Below, one piece after another: positions 885 through 9,805 of a stretch of 64,000 bases of DNA. The DNA lies in the sequence record PQ352032.1, one strand, 5' to 3'. Below the pieces are notes generated by a model, which saw nothing but the letters and a program-made list of their open reading frames with translations, did not search any database and was not told where the DNA came from. The stretch's first letter is position 1. The number at the start of each line of letters is the position of its first letter. The position numbers were made by a program, and so were the translations under genes. The stretch is from Enterobacter phage phiT5282EW.

Positions 885-2696
885 TTACAGGTCAGGCAGA
901 CCAAACGATTTGTAGAGCCCTTCCTCGTCGAGGTTCTGCAACGTGTTATGCAGCTCATCGAATTTTTTCTTATTGTCGGCTTGCAGCTGCTCCTGCTCGG
1001 CCTGCTGCTGTGCAGCTGCGTCGGCGTCGTCAGGGTTGGCAGGATCAGCGCCCGGCTCCTCGCCCGGCTGCTGTAGCTCGGCCTGCTGCGCCATCTGCTC
1101 GGCCTGAATATCAGCGTTGACCTTAGCCATATAAGGCTGCATCGAAACGCTGTTAAGCGGGGAGTTAGCCCAGTCTTCTTTGATTTCTTCCCAGTTGCGA
1201 GCGCGGCGTGCTTCGTTGACGGTAAGGAGCGTTTTCTCCTCGTCCCACGCCTGCTTCGGATCCTTCTCATCCAGACCTGTCCAGCGGAACACGTACTTAT
1301 CTGAGAAGTCGGAAATGATGTAATCGGTGAATAAGTCCTCGAAGTGCGACAGCAGCGGTCGCAGGCCCTTATCCTTCGAGTTGATCAGCTTCTCCTCCGT
1401 GTCACTGCCGGACAGCGAACTGGTACCAGCAGTGAAGGATTCGAAGTTGATCTCGTCCGGGGCGATGCCATAAATAGCGCAGATGATCGCGGTTAAGAAC
1501 GTCATCCATTTGGCAAACATGATCTCGTTAACGTCTACGCCAAAGTTTTCAAATTTCGCCGTGGATTCCGAAGTTTTGGAAACCATGACGGGCAATGTCC
1601 ATGCGTTATTGATGCCCTTCACCATGCTATTCCAGTACCGCTTAAAGGAGTTGAGATCCTCGGTAGAATAGTCGCCGGAGAGATGGAGCAGACCTTTCGG
1701 GATGGCGTTCGAGTCGAAATACTTCTGGTTGTACGTCATGGCGTTCAGGAAGCCCGTGACGGTGTTTACCAGCAGCTCAGTTTCGCTCATCCCGTAACCG
1801 CCGTTCAGCACATCGGTGCGGGTGTTGCGCGGAACATAGATCAGGTCGTTGTAGGTGTAAGCGGTGCGGATGTTACCCTGCACCACCTGTAATGCGAAAA
1901 TCTCATCATCGCCCTTATACCCGTCCTCGGTGCAGAGGCGGATCGTGGCACCATCGACGGCATAAAGCCCGTCCATGCCCAGCGAGCGGTTTTTCTTGAA
2001 TTCGGTCTCAATCGGCGCGGAGTCCATCACCAGCGAGTCGCGCACCAGCTTGCTCATGAAGCCTGAGAAGTTATCGCGCTTGAGGCGAGCACGCACGCGG
2101 GGGTTACTCTCCCAGCCGCAGTTTTGCATGAACATTTGCAGCGCGTTGATGGAGTCCTGCTCGGCTTTCGCCAGCTTCTGTGAGCCGTTCTGCTCTTTCA
2201 GACGGATCTGGAAGCCGGGGCCCACGCCCTTCTCACTGGCGCGGCAGAAGCGTTTGATCTGGCGGATGCGGGTCATCACCACCGCCGACAGGATTGGCGT
2301 CTTGTCCACCATGTAGCGCATGGCATCAAAGCCAAAGTTTGTCGGACGCTCGTACCAGTCGCCCAGAATCTGCACCTGACGGTCGTCCAGCCAGACGGAC
2401 TGCATACCTTCTTTCTTGCCCTCGCGGACAGCCTGAGAAGGGTAATCGACCAGTGTATTTTTCTGGAGGGACTTGTAAAATTCCTGATCAGCATATGACT
2501 GGGCGATATGCTGAATCAGCGGGGCCAGATCCGGCACGCTGGAAGGCATTGCAGCTTTCTGCGCTTGCGCCATCGCATCCTGCTGTTCGTCGGCAGGCGC
2601 GGCAGGGTTGTGCGCGGTTTGGATGGCGTTGTCAGACATACGGTTAACCTTTGCAAAGTAGTCCGCAGAGAGTGACATCACGACATCACGACGCAA
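885..2696 (-). CDS. portal protein (putative)
   Basis: 603-aa ORF next to the terminase large subunit in the same orientation. Acidic C-terminus (EEPGADPANPDDADAAA...). Size and position are typical of portals. Track start is TTG at 2696; in-frame ATGs at 2679 and 2639 are alternatives. Confidence 0.55.
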   Translation of the reverse strand: MRRDVVMSLSADYFAKVNRMSDNAIQTAHNPAAPADEQQDAMAQAQKAAMPSSVPDLAPLIQHIAQSYADQEFYKSLQKNTLVDYPSQAVREGKKEGMQSVWLDDRQVQILGDWYERPTNFGFDAMRYMVDKTPILSAVVMTRIRQIKRFCRASEKGVGPGFQIRLKEQNGSQKLAKAEQDSINALQMFMQNCGWESNPRVRARLKRDNFSGFMSKLVRDSLVMDSAPIETEFKKNRSLGMDGLYAVDGATIRLCTEDGYKGDDEIFALQVVQGNIRTAYTYNDLIYVPRNTRTDVLNGGYGMSETELLVNTVTGFLNAMTYNQKYFDSNAIPKGLLHLSGDYSTEDLNSFKRYWNSMVKGINNAWTLPVMVSKTSESTAKFENFGVDVNEIMFAKWMTFLTAIICAIYGIAPDEINFESFTAGTSSLSGSDTEEKLINSKDKGLRPLLSHFEDLFTDYIISDFSDKYVFRWTGLDEKDPKQAWDEEKTLLTVNEARRARNWEEIKEDWANSPLNSVSMQPYMAKVNADIQAEQMAQQAELQQPGEEPGADPANPDDADAAAQQQAEQEQLQADNKKKFDELHNTLQNLDEEGLYKSFGLPDL

Positions 2697-3092
2697 AATA
2701 ATTTAAATACCCTCTTGCTATCATCTTTTTTGCGTGCTTTAATCCATCCCGTAGCGCTGATTGGGATGTTTTCCGATATTGAAATTTAACTTAGAAAGTT
2801 AATGTCAGTTATGGGACGGAAAGCATCAACCAATGAGCGCTTGGCTTTGACTACTCAATACGGATTTGTCGTTATTTCGCGTATACGGTTGTCAAGTGCT
2901 CAGCCAAATCCGATAAACCGGGTAGATCGATTCAGACGGCTAAGTGGAGCCTGACGATGAAAGCGCCGGATGAGGATGGCGAATGGCAAGCTACTGGCCT
3001 GACTTAATCTCTTTCAAAGTAAAGAGTAAATCTGGGCGGCGATAGTCCATAGAATCAATATCGCAATCGGGTGAAAATCCCGTTCAAATTCT

Positions 3093-3222
3093 ACCGATTA
3101 GTGACGATGAAAGGGGCCTTCGCGATCCCCAAGTAATTGGCAGGTTGCCTTAGGTCACAAGCCGCAGCGGAGATTGCAAGCGAAGCTGTAGGATAGAGGT
3201 TCGACTCCTCTGATCGGTGCCA
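3093..3222 (+). ncRNA. tRNA-like element 1, with ~50-nt internal insertion
   Basis: Canonical T-arm (AGAGG TTCGACT CCTCT), 7-bp acceptor pairing (ACCGATT with GATCGGT, one G-U), discriminator G and encoded CCA end at 3220-3222. Total length is 130 nt. The internal part has a GTGAC/GTCAC stem and a GGGGCCTTCG..CCCC hairpin instead of normal D/anticodon arms. Confidence 0.45.
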
Positions 3223-3364
3223 TTTTTGCGGTTACACAAGTGTGCAGATAGCGTGACGAGGAAAGGCGTTCCGTGCGACGCTGGAGGCGATGGTAGGGTA
3301 AGCACCCTCTCCTATGACTCACGACTCAACCTCTCCGGGTAACGACCGGAGCCGCAAAACAGAT

Positions 3365-3488
3365 TGAAGCGTAGCTCATTGGCAGAGCAGCACACGGATG
3401 CGGATCCGCGCCAGCACAAGGCTCCTTCGGGGTGTGCCGCTGGCTCCAGAAGTGTATGTAACTGGTTCGATCCCAGTCGCTTCAACCA
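3365..3488 (+). ncRNA. tRNA-like element 2, with ~50-nt internal insertion
   Basis: Perfect 7-bp acceptor stem (TGAAGCG / CGCTTCA). Normal D-arm (GCTC ATTGGCA GAGC) and T-arm (ACTGG TTCGATC CCAGT). Discriminator A and encoded CCA at 3486-3488. 124 nt long. The insert has a GCACAC/GTGTGC stem and a C(UUCG)G tetraloop hairpin. Four T separate it from the following tRNA. Confidence 0.5.
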
Positions 3489-3492
3489 TTTT

Positions 3493-3568
3493 GATTCTGT
3501 AGCTACAGCGGTAGAGCGGCGCACTGTTAATGCGCGGGTCGCTGGTTCGAATCCAGCCAGAATCGCCA
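3493..3568 (+). tRNA. tRNA-Asn (anticodon GTT)
   Basis: 76-nt cloverleaf by hand fold: acceptor GATTCTG/CAGAATC, D-arm GCTA-CAGCGGTA-GAGC, anticodon stem GCGCA/TGCGC with loop CT-GTT-AA, variable GGGTC, T-arm GCTGG TTCGAAT CCAGC, discriminator G, encoded CCA. Anticodon arm resembles E. coli tRNA-Asn. Confidence 0.8.
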
Positions 3569-3734
3569 GAGTAATCATGGGTTGGTTACAAGCCTGTCAG
3601 AAGGCAATCCCGCCCCGGCTCCTCCTCAGGTCGCCGGGGCACCTTCCCAGAATTAAGGGCAGTCCCTTACTTCTGCGTCGGTAAGAGCGGAGAATCAGGA
3701 AATTTCGACCGTAGTACCAAAACATTGCTTCCTT

Positions 3735-3760
3735 GCCGCCCCCGTGGGCGGCTTTTTTTT
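3735..3760 (+). terminator. rho-independent terminator after tRNA cluster
   Basis: GCCGCCC-CCGT-GGGCGGC hairpin followed by T8 on the plus strand. Confidence 0.7.
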
Positions 3761-3777
3761 AGCCTGAGGAGTAACCC

Positions 3778-4305
3778 ATGAATATCTTTCGCCGCATCCT
3801 GAATAAAATCTTTGGCATCCCACCAGCGCCACCAGAGCCGAAGATCGAGCCGCCAAAGTTCGGCGGTGATTTCCCGCGCCCGGTCTCCGTCACCATGAAG
3901 GCTACTCAGACCGTCAAGCAGGATCCGATGGCTGCGGCGGTCGCCCGTGCAAAAAGGGACGCGGAGAAAACTGCCGTAAAAGGCAACGTCAGCAGCGCGA
4001 GCAGCAGCTCCACCACACGCCCTGCATATGATCCACTCATGGATCCACTTAACCCGTTAAGCCCGCTATATGTTGGCGTAACAGTTGAGGAGCCGCGCCA
4101 CCGCGTACAGTATCAGGAGGCGACGACGATCAGCGATACCACGCACCGACACGTTTCCAGCCATTCTGAGCCAGTACGCAGCTACAGCTCGCACAGCAGC
4201 AGCCATTCGAGCCATGACTATGGCAGCAGCCACTCAAGCCACAGCAGCCACGACAGCGTCAGCTATGACCACGGCAGCAGCCACCATAGCGGCAGCGACT
4301 GGTAA
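3778..4305 (+). CDS. small His/Ser-rich protein (SH-repeat C-terminus), function unknown
   Basis: 175-aa ORF with SD GAGGAG 6 nt before the ATG. Plus strand, antisense to the flanking late genes, tail-to-tail with the terminase. C-terminus is low complexity (SHSSSHSSHDYGSSHSSHSSHD...HGSSHHSGSDW). Confidence 0.55.
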   Translation: MNIFRRILNKIFGIPPAPPEPKIEPPKFGGDFPRPVSVTMKATQTVKQDPMAAAVARAKRDAEKTAVKGNVSSASSSSTTRPAYDPLMDPLNPLSPLYVGVTVEEPRHRVQYQEATTISDTTHRHVSSHSEPVRSYSSHSSSHSSHDYGSSHSSHSSHDSVSYDHGSSHHSGSDW

Positions 4306-6921
4306 TTAGTCGTCACCTTTCGAAATAAAGCCGGAGCAGCCAATATCCTCCGGCTTCACCTGCATCATGATCTCATGGCAGGATCTGGTCTCCGGGTCGT
4401 AGTTCACACAGCGCCCGCAAACATCCCCGCGATACTTCACGCTGTTCACCTCCTCCATGTAGCTCACCAGCGTCTGATCAACGCCGATATCCAGCGGGCT
4501 CAGGCGCTCGATCTTCACCTGCGGTGCATCCGGCAGAATAAACGTACTGGTACCATGCGCACGGCTCCATGCCACATCGCACAGCAGGTTTGCGTATGAG
4601 AAGTGTGGATCGATGCCGATTTTCTTCACGCTGCGCTTGTACTGGTTCGTTTCCTCGTCCTTCTCAGCCACCAGCGCCGTTTTGGTGAAGTGCGTGAACA
4701 TTACCGGGGCCACGGCTTCCACGCGCGTGACGCCCTTCTCACGAATCTCCTGCACCAGCCCCTGAGGGTCTGGGATGAGGCAGATTGGCTCGTCGGCAGT
4801 GAAGCGGGCCATGGAGACCTGCATACACTTATACTGGTCAATGCGGACGGTGTAGCGATCCTGTTCGTTCTCGTCGGTGCGCACATCGGACTTGTCCAGC
4901 TTCATGCTGTCATTCCACTGGATCATGCCATCCGCTACAGTACCGAAGCTATTACAGATGAATACCCGGCCTTTGTGACGGTTGGCGAAGCGCTTGGCGT
5001 CGTTGTAGTTCGGGTTGATTTCCACCACGCAGCAAGCCACGCCGTACTGGTTCATCAGCTCGCTACAACGGGCAAACGGATCCTCGCTGTAAATCATTTC
5101 GATGTGGACAATCGCTTGGTGCCCGGAGGGCAGTCGCTCCTTGATAACCACCACGTTAAACTGGCCCATCTGGTCAATACCCATGTAGCAGTTATCTGCG
5201 CGGGACTTCCACTGCACGCCGAAACGCAGACCATGCTTAACGCAATTTGCCAGGTGTTCCAGCGTTACCGGAACCAGCGACGGATCGAGGAACGGCTTGC
5301 CCAGTTTACGGTTATAGAAGTTTTTCATATCCGTAGCGTTGTTGAAGGCGGAAATAATCTCGCCGGGGCTGATTGTCGGTGACAGGAACTGCGGAAAGTG
5401 CGCCGACCGGATGCACATTTCCCCTTCCTCATTCTCCGGCGCATCCGGGATCCATTCCCCGCGCTGCGTGTCCTCAATCCAGCCTCCGCAGCTGTAGCAG
5501 ACATATCGGTGGCGTCTGGTGTCCGGGTCGTACTTAATGCACTGCGGGAAATAGTCATCCAGCGGTTTCTTTTCGAGGCAGTGCGGGCACTCGGTATGGA
5601 AACGGTACTGGGATCCCAGCTTGTACCAGTGGTGGATATCGGAGTCGGGCCAGTTGGCGGTGGAGCCCATCAGGCTGTAACGGATCGGGGATGCAGACAG
5701 ACGCTCACGCGTTTTCTCCATCTGCTCCAGTGACATTTCCTGCACCTCATCGAAGCTCAGGACATCCATCGGGATGGATTCGGTAGTCGCGCGGCCCGAT
5801 GTCCAGCTGAATACAAACATGGCCTCACCGATGCGACGTGTACGCACGTTACCCTCGCCTTTCTTGCGACCGCCGCCTTTCTCATCGTCCTGCACCATGA
5901 GCGCATGTACCTCAGGTACGGTGCGCACAATCGGCATGAAGCGCTCGGAGGACTTGATCCCCGCCAGCGCGGCATCCGGCAAGAACATGCCGATAGTCAT
6001 CGGTTGGAAGCGCAGGCCAAGGTAAATAACAGCGAGCATTTCCATGACGGTAAAGCCCACCTGCGCACACTTCATCAGCACCAGCGTTTTGCGGTATGCC
6101 TCCTCGACGGTGCTGGGGATCTGGTCATAAATCCACGCCATCGCCGGGCGGTTGTCCAGCTTGAACGGGCGACCATCCACTTTGAGGCCGGTTTCGCCCA
6201 GCCGGATGCACCACTCCAGAAAGGTCTCGTTTGGCTTGAGGATTTTCTGGGAAGCGGTCAGTACAAAGGTCGTATCGAGGAATTCAGCATCATAGCGCTG
6301 GCGCTTCTCATCCCCGGTCGTGCTGTCCATTTTCTCCAGGAATGCCGCGTCGAGGTTGTGGCGGTTGGTCTCGGTCGGCACGCGGCGTCGGAACCAGTCA
6401 GGATCCAGCTCGGCTTCCATCCACAGGCGATAAAAGTCGTGATTCTTCCCGTAGGCCCCGGACAGGAACCATGCACTGCCGTGGTACTCGCGCAGGCACT
6501 CAGCCAGCGTGTCACCCCAGATCTGCATGAAGTTGTAAATCTCGCGCACGTCATCAATGATCATCAGGCCATACTGCCCATTAACCTCTTTCAGGCTGTC
6601 AGCCGCGTAAAGGTCAATGTACTGGCCCGACAGCAGCGTGATGCGCCTGCTGGTTGAGCTCTTGATGAGGGGATCGATGGCCTGTACGATCCGCGTGCGC
6701 ACCTCCATGAGGTCTTTGTACGTGGCGCTCATCCACATCGCCGGGGCAGGGTTATTCATGATGCCCTGTTTACCAGCCACCAGCGCCTCTATGCCAAGGG
6801 TTGTTTTTCCTGCCTTCTCGCCCATGGCAATAACGTTAAAACGCGCCGCACGGTCGATACAGACCTGCAACGCGTCATTGAGAATGGGCAGCTTAATTTT
6901 AACGGTCTTTTGGCGTGCCAT
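4306..6921 (-). CDS. terminase large subunit (GpA-like), with C-terminal extension
   Basis: Walker A GEKAGKTT near the N-terminus and a CxxC...C..C zinc-ribbon segment (CPHCLEKK...CYSCGGW). About 871 aa. Start placed at ATG 6921 with AAGGA SD; the track's TTG start is at 6957. Confidence 0.7.
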   Translation of the reverse strand: MARQKTVKIKLPILNDALQVCIDRAARFNVIAMGEKAGKTTLGIEALVAGKQGIMNNPAPAMWMSATYKDLMEVRTRIVQAIDPLIKSSTSRRITLLSGQYIDLYAADSLKEVNGQYGLMIIDDVREIYNFMQIWGDTLAECLREYHGSAWFLSGAYGKNHDFYRLWMEAELDPDWFRRRVPTETNRHNLDAAFLEKMDSTTGDEKRQRYDAEFLDTTFVLTASQKILKPNETFLEWCIRLGETGLKVDGRPFKLDNRPAMAWIYDQIPSTVEEAYRKTLVLMKCAQVGFTVMEMLAVIYLGLRFQPMTIGMFLPDAALAGIKSSERFMPIVRTVPEVHALMVQDDEKGGGRKKGEGNVRTRRIGEAMFVFSWTSGRATTESIPMDVLSFDEVQEMSLEQMEKTRERLSASPIRYSLMGSTANWPDSDIHHWYKLGSQYRFHTECPHCLEKKPLDDYFPQCIKYDPDTRRHRYVCYSCGGWIEDTQRGEWIPDAPENEEGEMCIRSAHFPQFLSPTISPGEIISAFNNATDMKNFYNRKLGKPFLDPSLVPVTLEHLANCVKHGLRFGVQWKSRADNCYMGIDQMGQFNVVVIKERLPSGHQAIVHIEMIYSEDPFARCSELMNQYGVACCVVEINPNYNDAKRFANRHKGRVFICNSFGTVADGMIQWNDSMKLDKSDVRTDENEQDRYTVRIDQYKCMQVSMARFTADEPICLIPDPQGLVQEIREKGVTRVEAVAPVMFTHFTKTALVAEKDEETNQYKRSVKKIGIDPHFSYANLLCDVAWSRAHGTSTFILPDAPQVKIERLSPLDIGVDQTLVSYMEEVNSVKYRGDVCGRCVNYDPETRSCHEIMMQVKPEDIGCSGFISKGDD

Positions 6922-6964
6922 TGTGAATCCTTGGGTAAAATGGCCCCGAAGGGCCAAGAGGGTA

Positions 6965-9805
6965 TTATTTTTTAAGTGCTGCGATGGTAGCTTTCGCTGA
7001 TTCAGGATCGGTTAACGCGAGGTCTACCAGATCAAGAAGCTGCTTAATAGCTTCGGTATGGAAAGCCGCAGTCAGCCCGGAGTAATTGAGGCTTTTAAAA
7101 TCTTTAATCTGCGTCTTCTGGTCGTATGAGGTATGGATTCCGGTACTTACGGCTTCTGGAGCCCATGGTTCAACGTCCTGCGCGATCAGTCCTACCTCGC
7201 GGCTTTCTACATCTTTGCGCTGGTAAGTCACACCACGCCAGTTGATAACTGCTTTTAACGCATTATCCACTCTCTTAATGTCGGACTTAATGCGGATGTC
7301 TGAATCGACAACATACGCCCCGTTACCATGCAGCGTGCCATCTTGGTTTCGGAACTCCCAGCCATAACCCCCGGTATCTTTCAGGCAGTACAATTTCGCG
7401 CAGAAATAGTTACCTTGGTAATCGAGAGGATAAAGCTCGACTCGGCTGGACGCTGAGAGCGATGAGCCAAGGCGCATGACAAGCTGTGTTCCCCTTGCCT
7501 GCTTGTTGTTATCGTAGAACCCTGGTGAATAGCTATTAATGAAATCAATCGCTCCGTTAATAATGCCGCCAGAGCCAAAGGTAATCGAGCGGCAGTCACG
7601 TAAATTCGAAGCCCCAGTGACGTTCAGCCCCACAGAGGTAAGCGTACCGGGCACATTCATGCTGCCGTCGTCGCTCATATCAAAGTTAGCCGTATTATTT
7701 CGCGTCTTATTAGTCACGGTAATGCGCGCTGAATATTTAGCGCCGACCGTACCGACAGCCTGCAACATCGCCTTACATTCAGATACGCCTGCGACCTGAT
7801 AATCAGAAATAATCTGACCACCCTTGATCGAGGTGTTATTGCTCGGCAGCGCAGTATCACCATTGATCACAGACCACGACGTATTCGCGGCAACAAATCC
7901 ACCCGATGCACGAATGACCCAGACCCCAACGAAGCTACGGGGCAATACGTCATCCGTGATATTATCACGACCGTAGACACTATCAGAAATGGACGCATCA
8001 AGGGACAGTCTGTTTGACGAAGACCCTGTTCCGCTAGGAGTATAAACGCTCCCGTTAGCACCATTATAAGTTGTTAAAGAACGCTCACCACCATCTAAAC
8101 CACCTTCACCACCAGCTATTTTAACGCTACCTTTGATGTTTGGTACGGCGGCCTTATACACCAGACCATCCATACCGGAGTTACCACCATCACCACGAGC
8201 GAACAGCGCCTTAATTGAGTTGGACTGAACACCATTACGGTCAGGTACACGGAAGGTGGTAGAACCATTGCCGAGAGAGTATCTACCACGTTTAGTATGG
8301 TCTGCTAACCACTCAGCATCAGTGATGGGCGTGAGCATCTGAGCATACGCCCACAACTCGGGCCAGTCTGCGCGGTTAAGCAACTGACCGTCAGATACAA
8401 CCTCATACGGCTGAATGTATGCACGGCTATCGCGTAAGTGGAAGTCACCCACGCCGTAGTTCATCACGCCATTCATGGATGGCCCGCCAGCACCGCCAGA
8501 AGCCGAACGTAGCTGTCTCATGGTTACGGCGTCATAATCACCAACGGCATCGCCGCCCAGTTTCAGCGGGCCAGATAGCCCGGTCATGGAGGTAATGTCG
8601 TCATTTACCCCTGATTTTGCGCTTTTACGCCAGTCCGTGAATACGCTTCCATCATAGCTTCGTGACGCAATACGCCCGCTTTTGGCAATGTAAATCTGCG
8701 TAACACCACCAGATACCCCGATTGGGAATACAATCAGCTGCCCGGTTTCATCAAACGGGAAGTTATTGGCTGCGACAGCGCCAGCAACACTAGTGAGGGA
8801 TACCACGCCATAATGCGCCGGAAGGATGCGATCATTCAGGTTGATAACCGTTGTAATGACATCCAGCTGGGCGACGGCTTTCACTTCGGATGCCGCAGGC
8901 GGGTTATCGCTGGTATACATCCGGCGAGAGGCGCTCCAGACGTTATTCGTCCGTGTGATGCGATAGAGCCATGTTGGCGTCGCACCCTCGGAAGCGAAAA
9001 TTAATACCATCGAGGTGCGATCCTCATTCACGCTTTCGCAGTGAATGCGCCACGCCACTGCGCCAGCACCAGTAACCCCAGAAGGAAAACCATTCGAGCT
9101 AATAGCATCCGATGCTTTCACGCGCATAGTTTCACCTACGCGCCAGACATGCGAGGTGATCGTGTCTCCGGTGGCAGCGAAGTCGAAGTAAGGCAGTTTG
9201 ATGCCCATAAGGCCAGCATAAGCCGCTGTAAGCACCGCGCCGTCGCGGGTGGTGGTTGGGCTGGCGATCTCCTGATCGGTCAGGGAACGGGCGATATTCA
9301 GCGCTACTCCTCCGGTCGGCTGAGCACCGCTGCTGTGTGTCCAGTCGATTGTTGCACCGTTACCCGCGATCAGTAGGCCAGTCCATTTGCGCGGTGCAGT
9401 GCTCGGCGCGATGTTAAACCAGATCTCATACGTATCAGCTGCGACCTCGACCAGCTTGCCGCCAAGGATGGTCGCTGAATTTACGCCAAGGTTAGTCTGG
9501 GCAGTAACGGTGATGCGTGCCGGATCACCGACAGTGGTCACAGAGCCGTCGCCTGTCTGCATGACAATGTTGGCGAATCCAGTACCAGTCACCACCATCA
9601 GCGTAATGGCAATTTTGCCCTGCGCTAGATTGGAGATCTTGCCCATCTTCTGCCAGCTATCTGACGTGATATCCCAGTCAGTGAGCATCACGGCATTTTT
9701 ATCCAGCATGGTCAGAGCATCGGTCAGCTTGCCCACATCAATTTTTAACGGGTTGGTCAGGTATGGGACAGGAAGCCCAAGCCGGGGAGTAGTTTTGTCC
9801 ACCAT
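6965..9805 (-). CDS. tail fibre/tailspike with C-terminal peptidase S74 intramolecular chaperone domain
   Basis: 946 aa. C-terminal ~120 aa (DSDIRIKSDIKRVDNALKAVINWRGVTYQRKD...REVGLIAQDVEPWAPEAV) matches the self-cleaving chaperone domain of endosialidase/T5 pb1-type fibres. Central Gly/Thr/Ser-rich beta-type region. Confidence 0.8.
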   Translation of the reverse strand: MVDKTTPRLGLPVPYLTNPLKIDVGKLTDALTMLDKNAVMLTDWDITSDSWQKMGKISNLAQGKIAITLMVVTGTGFANIVMQTGDGSVTTVGDPARITVTAQTNLGVNSATILGGKLVEVAADTYEIWFNIAPSTAPRKWTGLLIAGNGATIDWTHSSGAQPTGGVALNIARSLTDQEIASPTTTRDGAVLTAAYAGLMGIKLPYFDFAATGDTITSHVWRVGETMRVKASDAISSNGFPSGVTGAGAVAWRIHCESVNEDRTSMVLIFASEGATPTWLYRITRTNNVWSASRRMYTSDNPPAASEVKAVAQLDVITTVINLNDRILPAHYGVVSLTSVAGAVAANNFPFDETGQLIVFPIGVSGGVTQIYIAKSGRIASRSYDGSVFTDWRKSAKSGVNDDITSMTGLSGPLKLGGDAVGDYDAVTMRQLRSASGGAGGPSMNGVMNYGVGDFHLRDSRAYIQPYEVVSDGQLLNRADWPELWAYAQMLTPITDAEWLADHTKRGRYSLGNGSTTFRVPDRNGVQSNSIKALFARGDGGNSGMDGLVYKAAVPNIKGSVKIAGGEGGLDGGERSLTTYNGANGSVYTPSGTGSSSNRLSLDASISDSVYGRDNITDDVLPRSFVGVWVIRASGGFVAANTSWSVINGDTALPSNNTSIKGGQIISDYQVAGVSECKAMLQAVGTVGAKYSARITVTNKTRNNTANFDMSDDGSMNVPGTLTSVGLNVTGASNLRDCRSITFGSGGIINGAIDFINSYSPGFYDNNKQARGTQLVMRLGSSLSASSRVELYPLDYQGNYFCAKLYCLKDTGGYGWEFRNQDGTLHGNGAYVVDSDIRIKSDIKRVDNALKAVINWRGVTYQRKDVESREVGLIAQDVEPWAPEAVSTGIHTSYDQKTQIKDFKSLNYSGLTAAFHTEAIKQLLDLVDLALTDPESAKATIAALKK

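What the first reader, a model, noticed from the sequence alone, without database searches (positions are those of the whole stretch)
3093..3568. tRNA cluster antisense inside the late operon: one canonical tRNA-Asn plus two tRNA-like RNAs with ~50-nt insertions
Between portal and terminase, on the opposite strand, three elements each end in a textbook T-arm, a 7-bp acceptor stem and an encoded CCA. Only the third folds as a normal 76-nt tRNA (Asn, GTT). The first two are 130 and 124 nt. Acceptor, T-arm and (in element 2) D-arm are conventional, but the anticodon region is replaced by extra helices (GTGAC/GTCAC with a GGGGCC-UUCG hairpin; GCACAC/GUGUGC with a C(UUCG)G tetraloop). Two perfect acceptor pairings by chance are very unlikely. 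They may be intron-containing or anticodon-less tRNA-like RNAs, comparable to the stable species 1/2 RNAs in the T4 tRNA region. A lone phage tRNA-Asn could also counteract an anticodon nuclease targeting QUN-anticodon tRNAs. Late transcripts must traverse this cluster antisense.
Basis: seen in the sequence. Interest (0 to 1): 0.7.

Follow-up and report, generated by a model that had tools for sequence, protein, structure and literature searches.

The report
Swappable array of tRNA-shaped phage RNAs
Between its portal and terminase genes this E. coli phage carries a swappable array of small RNA genes that have the ends and elbow of a tRNA but a folded insert where the anticodon should be, and because they cannot decode yet are better conserved than the phage's structural genes, the tRNA shape appears to serve as a natural carrier for other functional RNAs.

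Summary
E1 (3093-3222) and E2 (3365-3488) each have a 7-bp acceptor stem, a canonical T-arm and an encoded NCCA, but no anticodon loop. Element 3 is a normal tRNA-Asn(GTT).

M carries a conserved pseudoknotted core that also occurs in Ackermannviridae and other phages.

Relatives reached through the neighbouring ORF175 gene show that the island is a combinatorial array. The modules E1, M, E2, a new module E3, a 68-nt mini-tRNA-like element and tRNA-Asn occur in at least 8 different orders. They are always packed 0-6 nt apart, and some islands contain no true tRNA.

In diverged relatives portal and TerL are 84-89% identical and neighbouring non-coding DNA 68-75%, but E1, M and E2 are 94-98.5%. 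Compensatory changes preserve the E2 acceptor stem, M helix a and the E3 T-stem. The 62-nt payload of E3 stays constant while its scaffold varies.

The best reading is that these are non-decoding stable RNAs, matured like tRNAs, in which the tRNA body acts as a processing and stability scaffold for structured payloads. This is the natural counterpart of the engineered E. coli "tRNA scaffold". They are accessory genes, and what the payloads do is unknown. Intron, tmRNA and pseudogene readings are not supported.

The parts
2697..4305 (+). The whole opposite-strand accessory island between portal and TerL: a non-coding RNA array followed by ORF175.
   Evidence: PHROGs identify portal at 885-2696(-) and TerL at 4306-6957(-). 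In relatives L017 and L041 the TerL homolog (52% identity) abuts the portal gene with no island. ECML-606-1 has no CDS annotated across the RNA part.
3025..3489 (+). Presence/absence cassette (lead + E1 + M + E2).
   Evidence: In L005 and L298, which have a 100% identical portal protein, this stretch is replaced by an unrelated 96-nt hairpin. It is identical in L299 and 99.7% identical in ECML-606-1.
3064..3092 (+). Conserved 'lead' hairpin (CGCAAUCGGGUGAAAAUCCCGUUCAAAUUCU) that directly precedes the first module in most arrays.
   Evidence: It is 89-100% conserved in L004, L301-L306, L309 and L311, while the upstream 'pre' DNA falls to 68-75%. Its role is unknown, and no sigma-70 promoter was found there.
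3093..3222 (+). E1, a 130-nt tRNA-shaped RNA. Acceptor stem 3093-3099/3212-3218, T-arm 3195-3211 (AGAGG-UUCGACU-CCUCU), discriminator G3219, CCA 3220-3222. The interior is a long GUAA-capped hairpin (about 3115-3156) plus a stem (3162-3169/3185-3192) that closes a variable 16-nt loop.
   Evidence: Scanner result. The tRNA-like four-way fold costs only 1.8 kcal/mol over the minimum-energy fold. Identity is 98.5% in L306 and 96.9% in L311, and all 6 changes fall in the loop or are wobble-compatible. There is no Rfam tRNA hit.
3224..3359 (+). M, a 136-nt tRNA-like structured RNA. 8-bp closing helix UUUUGCGG/CCGCAAAA, small D-like hairpin, conserved pseudoknotted core 3248-3335, T-arm-like hairpin 3333-3351 (CUCCGG-GUAACGA-CCGGAG). 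No CCA.
   Evidence: Fold. Homologs occur in Vi01 and KpS110 (with a canonical T-arm there), L027, L047 and L050. Pseudoknot covariation: 94.6% of cells paired against 28-46% for slid partners, 6 pairs with changes on both sides, 0/500 shuffles. Model R1 scores it at 101 bits. A further compensatory C-G to U-A change is seen in L303 and L305.
3365..3488 (+). E2, a 124-nt tRNA-shaped RNA. Acceptor stem 3365-3371/3478-3484, D-arm 3374-3388, 4-bp anticodon-stem stub 3390-3393/3452-3455, hairpin b 3395-3408, helix c 3410-3415/3439-3444 with a variable tip hairpin (UUCG), variable loop AUGUA 3456-3460, T-arm 3461-3477, discriminator A3485, CCA 3486-3488.
   Evidence: The unconstrained minimum-energy fold is the cloverleaf. 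Variants in L302, L303, L305 and L311 show a compensatory G-C to A-U change at acceptor pair 5-116, while the D-arm, T-arm, helix c and hairpin b are invariant and the changes cluster in the tip hairpin. It occurs in 5 different array contexts.
3493..3568 (+). A genuine tRNA-Asn (anticodon GTT) with encoded CCA.
   Evidence: ARAGORN; Rfam tRNA 61.5 bits. In sibling islands it is replaced by a mini tRNA-like element or is absent.
3569..3760 (+). Structured 'post' trailer ending in a strong intrinsic terminator (stem 3735-3752, then T8).
   Evidence: Terminator scan; fold z-score -2.1. It is 99-99.5% conserved in close relatives and 85-86% in distant ones. Its loop CUCCUCAGG (3622-3630) is complementary to the ORF175 ribosome-binding site (3763-3771), as read.
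3778..4305 (+). ORF175, a Ser/His-rich, fast-evolving protein of unknown function that always follows the RNA array.
   Evidence: Translation. No Pfam or PHROG family. 15 homolog clusters, all in the same synteny.

Best explanation
E1, M and E2 are independent genes for stable RNAs that do not decode. They are transcribed together with tRNA-Asn as a tRNA-operon-like precursor. Each unit carries tRNA ends: an acceptor-type closing helix stacked on a T-arm, and in E1 and E2 an encoded CCA. The host tRNA-maturation machinery (RNase P at the 5' end, exonucleases and the CCA enzyme at the 3' end) can therefore cut the units out precisely and leave them stable. The tRNA body acts as a scaffold. A folded payload (hairpins, multi-helix junctions, or a pseudoknot in M) occupies the anticodon or D region and is the working part, presumably by binding a host or phage factor. 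The units are exchangeable cassettes in an accessory hotspot, so the function is dispensable for basic growth and is probably host-interaction or anti-defence. What is shown: the anatomy, the lack of decoding capacity, modularity, strong purifying constraint, structural covariation, and dispensability. What is inferred: transcription, RNase P processing, stability, and what the payload does.
For: (1) tRNA-type ends occur far above chance: 3 adjacent hits against 0.1 per window expected. Spacers of 0-6 nt are kept in every one of at least 8 arrangements, which is the packing of a tRNA operon.
(2) No anticodon loop exists. ARAGORN and Rfam tRNA reject E1 and E2.
(3) Constraint: in L303, L305 and L306 portal is 86-87% and TerL 84-89% identical, and 'pre' non-coding DNA 68-75%, but E1 is 98.5%, M 95.6-97.1% and E2 94.4-95.2%. 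Against ECML-606-1 the values are 100, 99.3 and 100%, with flanks at 79-85%.
(4) Structure is preserved by compensatory changes in the E2 acceptor stem, M helices a and c and the E3 T-stem and payload hairpins.
(5) Scaffold versus payload: the 62-nt payload of E3 is invariant between L306 and L308, while the T-stem, T-loop, D-loop and acceptor stem differ. The M core occurs with a canonical T-arm (Ackermannviridae), with a degenerate T-arm (this window), and with none (L047, L027, L050).
(7) Accessory status: natural siblings with an identical portal protein lack the cassette (L005, L298), and some relatives have no island at all.
Against: There are no expression data, no mapped RNA ends, and no convincing promoter. 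The only sigma-70-like site is a weak one at 2672-2699. E1 and E2 are known only from one phage clade and at 94% identity or more, so covariation for them amounts to a single double change (E2 pair 5-116) plus wobble-compatible changes. In E2 the most variable part is the tip of the insert, while the tRNA body is invariant. In E1 the variable part is the 16-nt loop. That pattern fits a model in which the tRNA-likeness itself is the functional part at least as well as it fits the scaffold model. High identity across diverged phages could partly reflect recent horizontal exchange of cassettes rather than selection. The target of the payloads is unknown.
Confidence: 0.55

Rival explanations
1. 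tRNA-mimic decoys. Here the tRNA shape itself is the functional part. The RNAs bind a host factor that recognises tRNA bodies, such as an anticodon nuclease, an acceptor-end-modifying toxin, or a processing or modification enzyme. Because the cleavable anticodon loop is replaced by a stable structure, they act as uncleavable competitive inhibitors or sponges.
For: E2 and E3 keep every tRNA feature except the anticodon loop: acceptor stem, D-arm with GG, 5-nt variable loop, T-arm and CCA. In E2 the body is invariant and the tip of the insert is the variable part. The island is hypervariable, accessory and in the opposite orientation to its neighbours, like many anti-defence loci. Different modules resemble different tRNAs; the 5' half of E2 aligns with tRNA-Asn.
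Against: The M core exists without any tRNA features in L047, and with only a closing helix in L027 and L050. E1 lacks a D-arm. E3 shows the opposite pattern, with an invariant payload and a drifting scaffold. No defence gene or target was identified.
Confidence: 0.2
2. Interrupted tRNA genes. The roughly 50-nt inserts are introns that are removed to give decoding tRNAs; for E2 the product would be a CCA-anticodon (Trp-like) tRNA.
For: Removing 3396-3445 from E2 leaves exactly a 17-nt arm, GCACA-CUCCAGA-AGUGU, with U33 and a purine at position 37 (read from the sequence). Many insertion-bearing tRNA genes that do keep an anticodon loop exist in other phages and bacteria.
Against: The inserts are far too short for group I introns, and no intron family is hit. 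E. coli has no tRNA splicing endonuclease (established knowledge). The hypothetical arm would have an A-A mismatch, and A73 does not fit bacterial Trp identity. A U33/R37 pattern arises by chance about once in 8. E1 and M leave no anticodon loop under any deletion. The E2 insert forms well-ordered helices that are conserved.
Confidence: 0.05
3. Decaying relics of tRNA genes (pseudogenes scrambled by insertions or recombination) with no function of their own.
For: The 5' half of E2 resembles the neighbouring tRNA-Asn (p=0.027), and its helix c has the same sequence as the tRNA-Asn T-stem. tRNA clusters in phages are known to turn over (established knowledge). The cassette is dispensable.
Against: E1, M and E2 are more conserved than portal and TerL, and far more conserved than the adjacent non-coding DNA. 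Acceptor stems and T-arms are perfect and are maintained by compensatory change. The inserts are capped by UUCG or GNRA tetraloops. The same module recurs intact in many array contexts with exact boundaries.
Confidence: 0.04
4. A cis-acting structured leader. The array is a long 5' regulatory or processing region that controls expression of ORF175, or insulates it from antisense late transcription, rather than a set of trans-acting RNAs.
For: The array is always followed by the 'post' trailer, a terminator and ORF175. A post loop is a perfect 9-nt complement of the ORF175 ribosome-binding site.
Against: Islands with one module or with four precede the same ORF175. The M and E3 modules occur in unrelated phages that have no ORF175. 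Encoded CCA ends and tRNA-operon spacing are not needed for a leader.
Confidence: 0.04
5. Mini tmRNA-like molecules that act in trans-translation. E1 contains the short frame AUG AAA GGG GCC UUC GCG AUC CCC AAG UAA.
For: E1 has a tRNA-like acceptor stem and T-arm with CCA, and a 9-codon frame at 3108-3137.
Against: ARAGORN and the Rfam tmRNA models find nothing. There is no G3-U70 pair for alanylation (position 3-70 is C-G). At 130 nt E1 is about half the size of the smallest known tmRNAs. The predicted tag lacks the usual C-terminal hydrophobic motif.
Confidence: 0.01

Closest known systems
Engineered 'tRNA scaffold' for recombinant RNA in E. coli (Ponchon and Dardel; PMC3753655)
   Same: The design is the same as E2 and E3: an acceptor stem with T- and D-arms is kept, and the anticodon stem-loop is replaced by a structured insert. 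In the same host this design gives precise processing and protection from degradation.
   Different: The scaffold is man-made, whereas these elements are natural, phage-encoded, arranged in tandem arrays and evolutionarily conserved. E1 lacks a D-arm and M has a degenerate T-loop.
Phage T4 stable RNAs species 1 (rnaC, 139 nt) and species 2 (rnaD, 119 nt)
   Same: They are small RNAs of similar size encoded head-to-tail with tRNA genes. rnaC ends in a canonical T-arm (CCGGG-UUCGAAU-CCCGG) with a short terminal helix. Their function is unknown (record annotation and my own knowledge).
   Different: There is no detectable sequence similarity; E1 and E2 searched against 50,697 phage records, including T4, match only ECML-606-1. 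rnaC and rnaD lack the 7-bp acceptor stem with encoded CCA, and rnaD shows no obvious tRNA features.
tRNA (Rfam RF00005), including tRNA genes that carry insertions
   Same: Acceptor stem, T-arm, discriminator and CCA are present. E2 also has a D-arm and a 5-nt variable loop. The sibling module E3 scores 46.1 bits as a tRNA with a 62-nt insertion in the anticodon loop.
   Different: E1 and E2 have no anticodon loop and are not matched by the model even at E<=10, so they cannot decode.
tRNA-like domains of tmRNA and of bacterial Y-RNA-like YrlA
   Same: These are non-decoding RNAs that mimic the acceptor/T-arm part of tRNA and attach other functional RNA domains to it.
   Different: For tmRNA there is no ARAGORN or Rfam hit, no G3-U70 pair and no tag reading frame with pseudoknots. 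For YrlA there are only weak hits of 28.3 and 21.3 bits against a gathering score of 69. These hits each run across a junction between two adjacent modules (E3/E2 and E1/E3) and reflect generic T-arm and D-arm motifs. In YrlA the tRNA-like part is apical, and the ends form the Ro-binding stem (PMC4201824 abstract; my own knowledge).
tRNA-like processing signals attached to other RNAs (MALAT1 mascRNA; murine gammaherpesvirus-68 tRNA-miRNA units)
   Same: A tRNA-like fold recruits RNase P or RNase Z to cut out and mature a linked non-coding RNA (PMC8457004 abstract; my own knowledge for MHV68).
   Different: Those systems are eukaryotic, and the linked RNA lies beside the tRNA-like unit. Here the cargo is embedded inside the tRNA body and the host is bacterial.

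Membership tests
tRNA (RF00005) | 7-bp acceptor stem, T-arm with a TΨC-type loop, and a discriminator followed by CCA. | tested here: met
   E1 is ACCGAUU/GAUCGGU-G-CCA with AGAGG-UUCGACU-CCUCU. E2 is UGAAGCG/CGCUUCA-A-CCA with ACUGG-UUCGAUC-CCAGU.
tRNA (RF00005) | Anticodon arm: a 5-bp stem closing a 7-nt loop with U33 and an anticodon. | tested here: not met
   E2 has a 4-bp stub that opens into two hairpins. E1 has a stem that closes a 16-nt loop. ARAGORN calls neither.
tRNA (RF00005) | Covariance-model score at or above the gathering score of 29 bits. | tested here: not met
   There is no hit for E1 or E2 even at E<=10, in the window or in L309. tRNA-Asn scores 61.5 bits and E3 46.1 bits.
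tmRNA | Detection by ARAGORN or the Rfam tmRNA models, a G3-U70 alanine identity pair, and a tag reading frame flanked by pseudoknots. | tested here: not met
   There are no tmRNA calls. Position 3-70 is C-G in E1 and A-U in E2 (sequence).
YrlA / bacterial Y RNA (RF02553) | Covariance-model score at or above the gathering score of 69 bits, and a Ro-binding terminal stem. | tested here: not met
   The best hit is 28.3 bits and spans the junction between E3 and E2 in L309. There is no hit in the window.
Group I intron-containing tRNA | A self-splicing group I intron (over 200 nt with a P3-P9 core) in the anticodon loop. | tested here: not met
   The inserts are about 50 nt, and no Intron_gpI hit appears at E<=10.
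Protein-spliced (bulge-helix-bulge) tRNA intron | A bulge-helix-bulge motif at the exon-intron junctions, and a splicing endonuclease in the host. | not testable with these tools
   By inspection the E2 junctions lie in a multiloop, not in a bulge-helix-bulge motif. Bacteria lack the endonuclease (established knowledge). No splice-junction data are available.
T4 rnaC / rnaD | Sequence homology to T4 species 1 or species 2 RNA. | tested here: not met
   blastn of E1 and E2 against the phage collection, which holds T4, at E<=1 finds only ECML-606-1.
M-core pseudoknot RNA (new family, model R1) | The conserved core AUAG-[a]-CGAGGnnA-[GGCGU hairpin]-[c]-GAU-[hairpin]-CCUnnGAC-[a']-nCUCA-[c'], with crossing helices a and c. 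| tested here: met
   Window 3248-3335 scores 101 bits. Covariation supports both crossing helices. E1 shares only GUGACGAnGAAAGG (p=0.009) and is NOT hit by R1.
Natural tRNA-scaffolded RNA module (class proposed here) | Precise tRNA-type ends, a payload in place of the anticodon or D region, and the same module recurring intact in different array contexts. | tested here: met
   Module maps of 14 islands with spacers of 0-6 nt. E2 occurs in 5 contexts, E1 in 4 and M in 3.
Natural tRNA-scaffolded RNA module (class proposed here) | Expression as discrete stable RNAs processed by RNase P. | not testable with these tools
   No transcriptome data are available. This feature is inferred from the anatomy and from PMC3753655.

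The most novel reading that the evidence does not exclude
Phages use the tRNA body as a natural, exchangeable expression cassette for diverse structured RNA payloads. Some payload families (the M core and the E3 four-way junction) are shared between unrelated phage families: Ackermannviridae, N4-like Schitoviridae and this 95-kb group. The arrays form a hypervariable RNA 'arsenal' whose payloads neutralise host defence or toxin proteins, for example tRNA- or RNA-directed nucleases, in the way that RNA antitoxins and RNA anti-CRISPRs do. This would be a new class of accessory phage genes that current tRNA finders and protein-centred annotation cannot see.
Probability: 0.3. Interest if true: 0.85.

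Novelty: new variant of a known kind. Interest (0 to 1): 0.72.

Why it matters
If these RNAs are expressed, they show that nature already uses the 'tRNA scaffold' trick that biotechnologists devised for making stable RNAs in E. coli. They also show that phages shuffle such RNA cassettes the way they shuffle protein-coding accessory genes. That opens an unannotated layer of phage biology. These loci are recorded as empty or 'hypothetical' in ECML-606-1, Vi01-like phages, Jgk1 and Littlefix. The work yields three defined structured-RNA families (M, E3 and E2) that have covariation support and no Rfam entry. It may also shed light on the function of the T4 species 1 and 2 RNAs, which is still unknown. 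Finally, it offers natural cassette-plus and cassette-minus sibling phages for direct testing. The generic scan also suggests that insertion-bearing tRNA-like genes are common in viral and bacterial sequence data and are missed by default tRNA finders.

Tried and rejected
1. E1 'kissing' or pseudoknot helix CUUCGC(3118-3123)/GCGAAG(3180-3185). It was not significant alone, and two uncompensated changes in L311 break it. Rejected.

2. E2 pseudoknot, with helix a GCACAC/GUGUGC crossing helix c. Such a pair arises in 2.35% of shuffles. In L303, G26U and C31G remove both terminal pairs of helix a without compensation, while helix c is invariant. The nested cloverleaf, which is the minimum-energy fold, is preferred. 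The pseudoknot remains unresolved.

3. E1 as a diverged M. The two share 13 of 14 nt (p=0.009), but the M covariance model does not hit E1. E1 is not a member.

4. tmRNA or mini-ORF reading of E1. Rejected because there is no G3-U70 pair and no model hit.

5. Intron reading. See the rival explanations.

6. Direct searches for relatives of E1 and E2 were empty or gave only chance hits: cultured phages, E. coli genomes, and a scan for the E1 motif followed by a T-loop.

7. M-core pattern scans gave only 1 new contig in metagenomes and 0 in GTDB genomes. L048 was a chance hit in coding sequence.

8. ARAGORN with free intron placement 'calls' nearly every insertion-bearing candidate, at scattered positions. 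For E2 it reads Arg from the UUCG tetraloop. It is not informative.

9. My first alignment of the ACCCAAG group used wrong minus-strand coordinates and was discarded.

10. No sigma-70 promoter was found for the array.

11. No Pfam or PHROG family was found for ORF175 or for ORFs that overlap the RNAs.

12. Literature searches found no description of such arrays. The T4 genome review (PMC150520) is not held in the library.
Full report
**1. What is in the sequence.**
The finding lies on the + strand, between two - strand genes that PHROGs identify as portal (885-2696) and large terminase (4306-6957). ARAGORN and Rfam call a single gene in the whole window, tRNA-Asn(GTT) at 3493-3568, at 61.5 bits.

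I wrote a scanner for a 5-bp T-stem with a TTYRANN loop, followed directly by a 7-nt strand that pairs 60-220 nt upstream. On both strands of the 64 kb it finds E1 (3093-3218, followed by GCCA), E2 (3365-3484, followed by ACCA), tRNA-Asn and one weak hit in coding DNA. Shuffled sequence gives 0.1 hits per window.

E2's unconstrained minimum-energy fold is already a cloverleaf. It has a 7-bp acceptor stem, a canonical D-arm, a 4-bp stub at the anticodon-stem position that opens into two hairpins, a 5-nt variable loop (AUGUA) and a T-arm. E1 reaches a tRNA-like four-way junction for 1.8 kcal/mol above its minimum. That fold has a long GUAA-capped hairpin in place of the D-arm and a stem that closes a 16-nt loop. 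Neither element has an anticodon loop. Rfam's tRNA model does not match either, even at E<=10.

**2. A third element was overlooked.**
The stretch between E1 and E2 (M, 3224-3359) is closed by an 8-bp helix, UUUUGCGG/CCGCAAAA, that abuts a T-arm-like hairpin. Its central 90 nt match unannotated DNA in Vi01-like Ackermannviridae. There the same element has a canonical T-arm (GUCGG-UUCGAUU-CCGAC), an 8-bp acceptor-like helix and a 6-bp D-like hairpin.

Further copies lie just upstream of tRNA-Tyr (L027) and tRNA-Arg (L050), and one lies in L047. The L047 copy has no tRNA-like parts at all.

Across seven distinct sequences, the two crossing helices and a hairpin of the core pair in 94.6% of cells, against 28-46% when the partners are slid. 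Six pairs change on both sides, and no shuffle out of 500 reaches the observed score. M is therefore a real pseudoknotted RNA family that is absent from Rfam. A covariance model of the core scores the window copy at 101 bits and finds nothing else, E1 included.

**3. The island is an accessory, modular array.**
A contig with a 100% identical portal protein (L005) keeps the flanks and tRNA-Asn, but an unrelated 96-nt hairpin replaces 3025-3489. Two metagenome contigs with the identical portal protein repeat this polymorphism: L299 has the cassette and L298 lacks it. In more distant relatives TerL abuts the portal gene, with no island.

Homologs of ORF175, the island's own protein gene, led to 12 more loci; 11 of them share the same gene order, while L310, the most distant (36% identity), lies in a different gene context. 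Mapping the modules gave the following arrangements:

| Loci | Order of modules |
|---|---|
| window, ECML-606-1, L299, L311 | lead, E1, M, E2, Asn, post |
| L309 | lead, E1, E3, E2, Asn, post |
| L302 | lead, E1, E3, E2, mini, post |
| L301 | lead, E2, Asn', post |
| L303, L304, L305 | lead, M, E2, post |
| L306, L307 | lead, X, E1, M, E3, post |
| L308 | another tRNA-like element, E3, post |
| L005, L298, L300 | Asn, post |
| L004 | lead, X1, X2, mini', post |

Spacers between modules are 0-6 nt in every arrangement. Several arrays contain no true tRNA at all.

E3 is a new 131-nt module. It has a complete tRNA body and a 5-bp anticodon stem, and a 62-nt payload (a closing helix and three small hairpins) sits in place of the anticodon loop. 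Rfam scores it as a tRNA at 46.1 bits with a 62-nt insertion. The 'mini' element consists of an acceptor stem, one hairpin, a T-arm and CCA. It recurs in L302 and L004 with entirely different but still complementary acceptor strands.

**4. Constraint and covariation.**
Against ECML-606-1, portal and TerL are about 98% identical, flanking non-coding DNA is 79-84% and ORF175 is 85%. E1 and E2 are 100%, and M is 99.3%. The table below gives identity to the window in the diverged loci L303, L305 and L306.

| Segment | Identity to the window |
|---|---|
| portal | 86-87% |
| TerL | 84-89% |
| 'pre' non-coding DNA | 68-75% |
| 'post' trailer | 85-86% |
| ORF175 | 65-75% |
| E1 | 98.5% |
| M | 95.6-97.1% |
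| E2 | 94.4-95.2% |

The modules are thus better conserved than the essential genes next to them. This excludes decaying pseudogenes. It points to purifying selection, possibly combined with horizontal exchange.

The few changes respect the structures:
- **E2:** acceptor pair 5-116 changes from G-C to A-U in L305. The D-arm, T-arm, helix c and hairpin b never vary, and changes cluster in the tip hairpin.
- **E1:** the six changes are A1G (giving a G-U pair), two C-to-U changes opposite G, and three changes in the 16-nt loop.
- **M:** pair 30-101 changes from C-G to U-A.
- **E3:** the payload is identical between L306 and L308, while the T-stem (A-U to U-A), T-loop, D-loop and acceptor stem differ.

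E3 also has relatives in Escherichia phage Jgk1 and in the N4-like Pseudomonas phage Littlefix. With these included, 98.6% of cells pair, five pairs change on both sides, and no shuffle out of 500 reaches the score. One hairpin swaps a UUCG loop for a GUAA loop.

**5. How it most likely works.**
The common denominator of all modules, M included, is a tRNA-type terminal helix stacked on a T-arm, usually with an encoded CCA, packed head to tail like a tRNA operon. Such ends are what RNase P and the 3' trimming and CCA enzymes recognise (established knowledge).

[quoted passage not shown] I therefore propose that the array is transcribed as one precursor that ends at the strong terminator (stem 3735-3752), and that it is diced into stable RNAs. 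In these RNAs the tRNA body is the scaffold and the inserted fold is the working part.

The E3 pattern (invariant payload, drifting scaffold) supports this division of labour. So does the optional tRNA dressing of the M core.

The function of the payloads is unknown. The island is dispensable, hypervariable and inverted relative to its neighbours, so I favour a host-interaction or anti-defence role. The main rival is that the tRNA shape itself acts as a decoy. The E2 pattern, with an invariant body and a variable tip, fits that rival at least as well.

**6. What it is not.**
- **Decoding tRNAs:** excluded, because there is no anticodon loop and no model hit.
- **tmRNA:** excluded, because there is no model hit and no G3-U70 pair.
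- **YrlA:** excluded. The best hit is 28 bits against a gathering score of 69, and it spans the junction between two modules.
- **Group I intron hosts:** excluded. The inserts are about 50 nt and no intron family is hit.
- **Homologs of T4 rnaC or rnaD:** excluded at the sequence level. T4 rnaC is still a fair analogue, because it ends in a T-arm inside a tRNA operon.

Removing 3396-3445 from E2 would leave a 17-nt arm with the loop CUCCAGA. I regard this as coincidence, and only RNA data can exclude splicing. The tRNA-Asn has a standard anticodon loop, Asn codon use is ordinary, and sibling islands do without it. Nothing here supports an anti-nuclease role for it.

**7. Wider context.**
A generic scan looked for a standard D-arm, then 50-80 nt, then a T-loop. 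It reached its 120-locus limit both in IMG/VR and in GTDB genomes. About 70% of the matches have a perfect 7-bp acceptor pairing in tRNA register.

The set is mixed. Some are archaeal and giant-virus tRNAs with ordinary introns. There are also several recurrent bacterial and phage families that I could not find described in the searched literature. Default ARAGORN of the 99 IMG/VR candidates. tRNA-shaped genes with structured insertions thus appear to be common and largely unannotated.

**8. Verdict.**
The element is a new variant of a known kind: tRNA-like stable RNAs in phage tRNA operons, and tRNA scaffolds. It has an unexpected modular, exchangeable organisation and at least two payload families that are shared across unrelated phages. 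All functional steps remain inferred, and expression data for the cultured phage ECML-606-1 would be decisive.

Noticed in passing
About 70% have a perfect 7-bp acceptor stem in tRNA register, and default ARAGORN of the 99 IMG/VR candidates. Besides archaeal and giant-virus intron tRNAs, there are recurrent bacterial and phage insertion families: 'AAAAA-hairpin-ACAGCAA' (for example three in tandem in L054, each scoring 47-53 bits as tRNA), a cyanobacterial 'AAAACAUCCUU...GGGUUAUCG' family, and two Flavobacteriia families. In several members (L068, L097, L128) the insertion splits the 5' strand of the anticodon stem and an intact anticodon loop remains. I found no description of these in the literature I searched.
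   Followed up: partly
L061, L067, L084, L096, L107, L118, L131, L169 (ACCCAAG...CTTGGGT-GCCA) and L080, L114, L162: A solitary tRNA-like gene with A1-U72, G73 and an encoded CCA, with no ordinary tRNA nearby and no Rfam tRNA hit. It has an H-type pseudoknot in place of the anticodon arm (AGACC/GGUCU plus CCAG/CUGG). Both helices are compensated in the diverged subgroup (UGGUCU/AGACCA plus CCGC/GCGG). Only two effective lineages are available.
   Followed up: partly
window 3622-3630 and 3763-3771: A loop of the conserved 'post' trailer (CUCCUCAGG) is a perfect 9-nt complement of the ORF175 ribosome-binding region (CCUGAGGAG), which lies just beyond the terminator. On read-through this could mask the ribosome-binding site. 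L004 keeps only about 5 nt of the complementarity.
   Followed up: no
window 3778-4305: ORF175 is a Ser/His-rich, low-complexity protein with no Pfam or PHROG family. It evolves fast (65-88% nucleotide identity where TerL is 84-98%). In the 11 homolog loci that share this gene order it directly follows the RNA array.
   Followed up: partly
L003 (Klebsiella phage KpS110) 2046-4282; L002 (Vi01): In Ackermannviridae the M homolog opens an unannotated, ORF-poor stretch of about 2.2 kb upstream of the tRNA cluster. In KpS110 this stretch contains an Rfam STnc100 match (48.7 bits against a gathering score of 47, at 3767-3980) and weak permuted-tmRNA hits. It may hold further structured RNAs.
   Followed up: no
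L312 (Escherichia phage Jgk1, PV292302.1, about 37.9 kb) and L313 (Pseudomonas phage Littlefix, MG775260.1, 7470-7588): E3-family tRNA-scaffolded RNAs occur in unannotated DNA of unrelated cultured phages. In Littlefix the element lies about 210 nt downstream of tRNA-Arg(TCT) and next to the virion RNA polymerase gene.
   Followed up: partly
L308 locus about 2010-2170 (island positions about 583-745): Another apparent tRNA-like element lies upstream of E3. It has a GAGG-UUCGAUU-CCUC T-arm followed by a strand that pairs with an upstream GCCGG. It was not characterised. An 83-nt element X in L306 and hairpins X1 and X2 in L004 are likewise uncharacterised array members.
   Followed up: no
L005 5577-5672 (reverse strand): In phages that lack the cassette, the E1-M-E2 block is replaced by a 96-nt segment with a long inverted repeat (AUAUAUCAAUCUGCUGG...CCAGCAGAUUGAUAU).
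   Followed up: no
window 3493-3568: The nearest E. coli relatives of the phage tRNA-Asn (79-83% identity) are tRNA-Asn genes on plasmids of about 110 kb (292 of 300 matching places), not the chromosomal asn tRNA genes.
   Followed up: no
L028 6696-7096: ARAGORN calls a permuted tmRNA (tag ANDSSFLMAANA) downstream of tRNA-Met in a distant relative of this phage group.
   Followed up: no
window 6965-9805: The tail-fibre gene next to TerL is only 70.8% identical to that of ECML-606-1, while portal and TerL are about 98%. This is the usual mosaicism of host-range genes.
   Followed up: no
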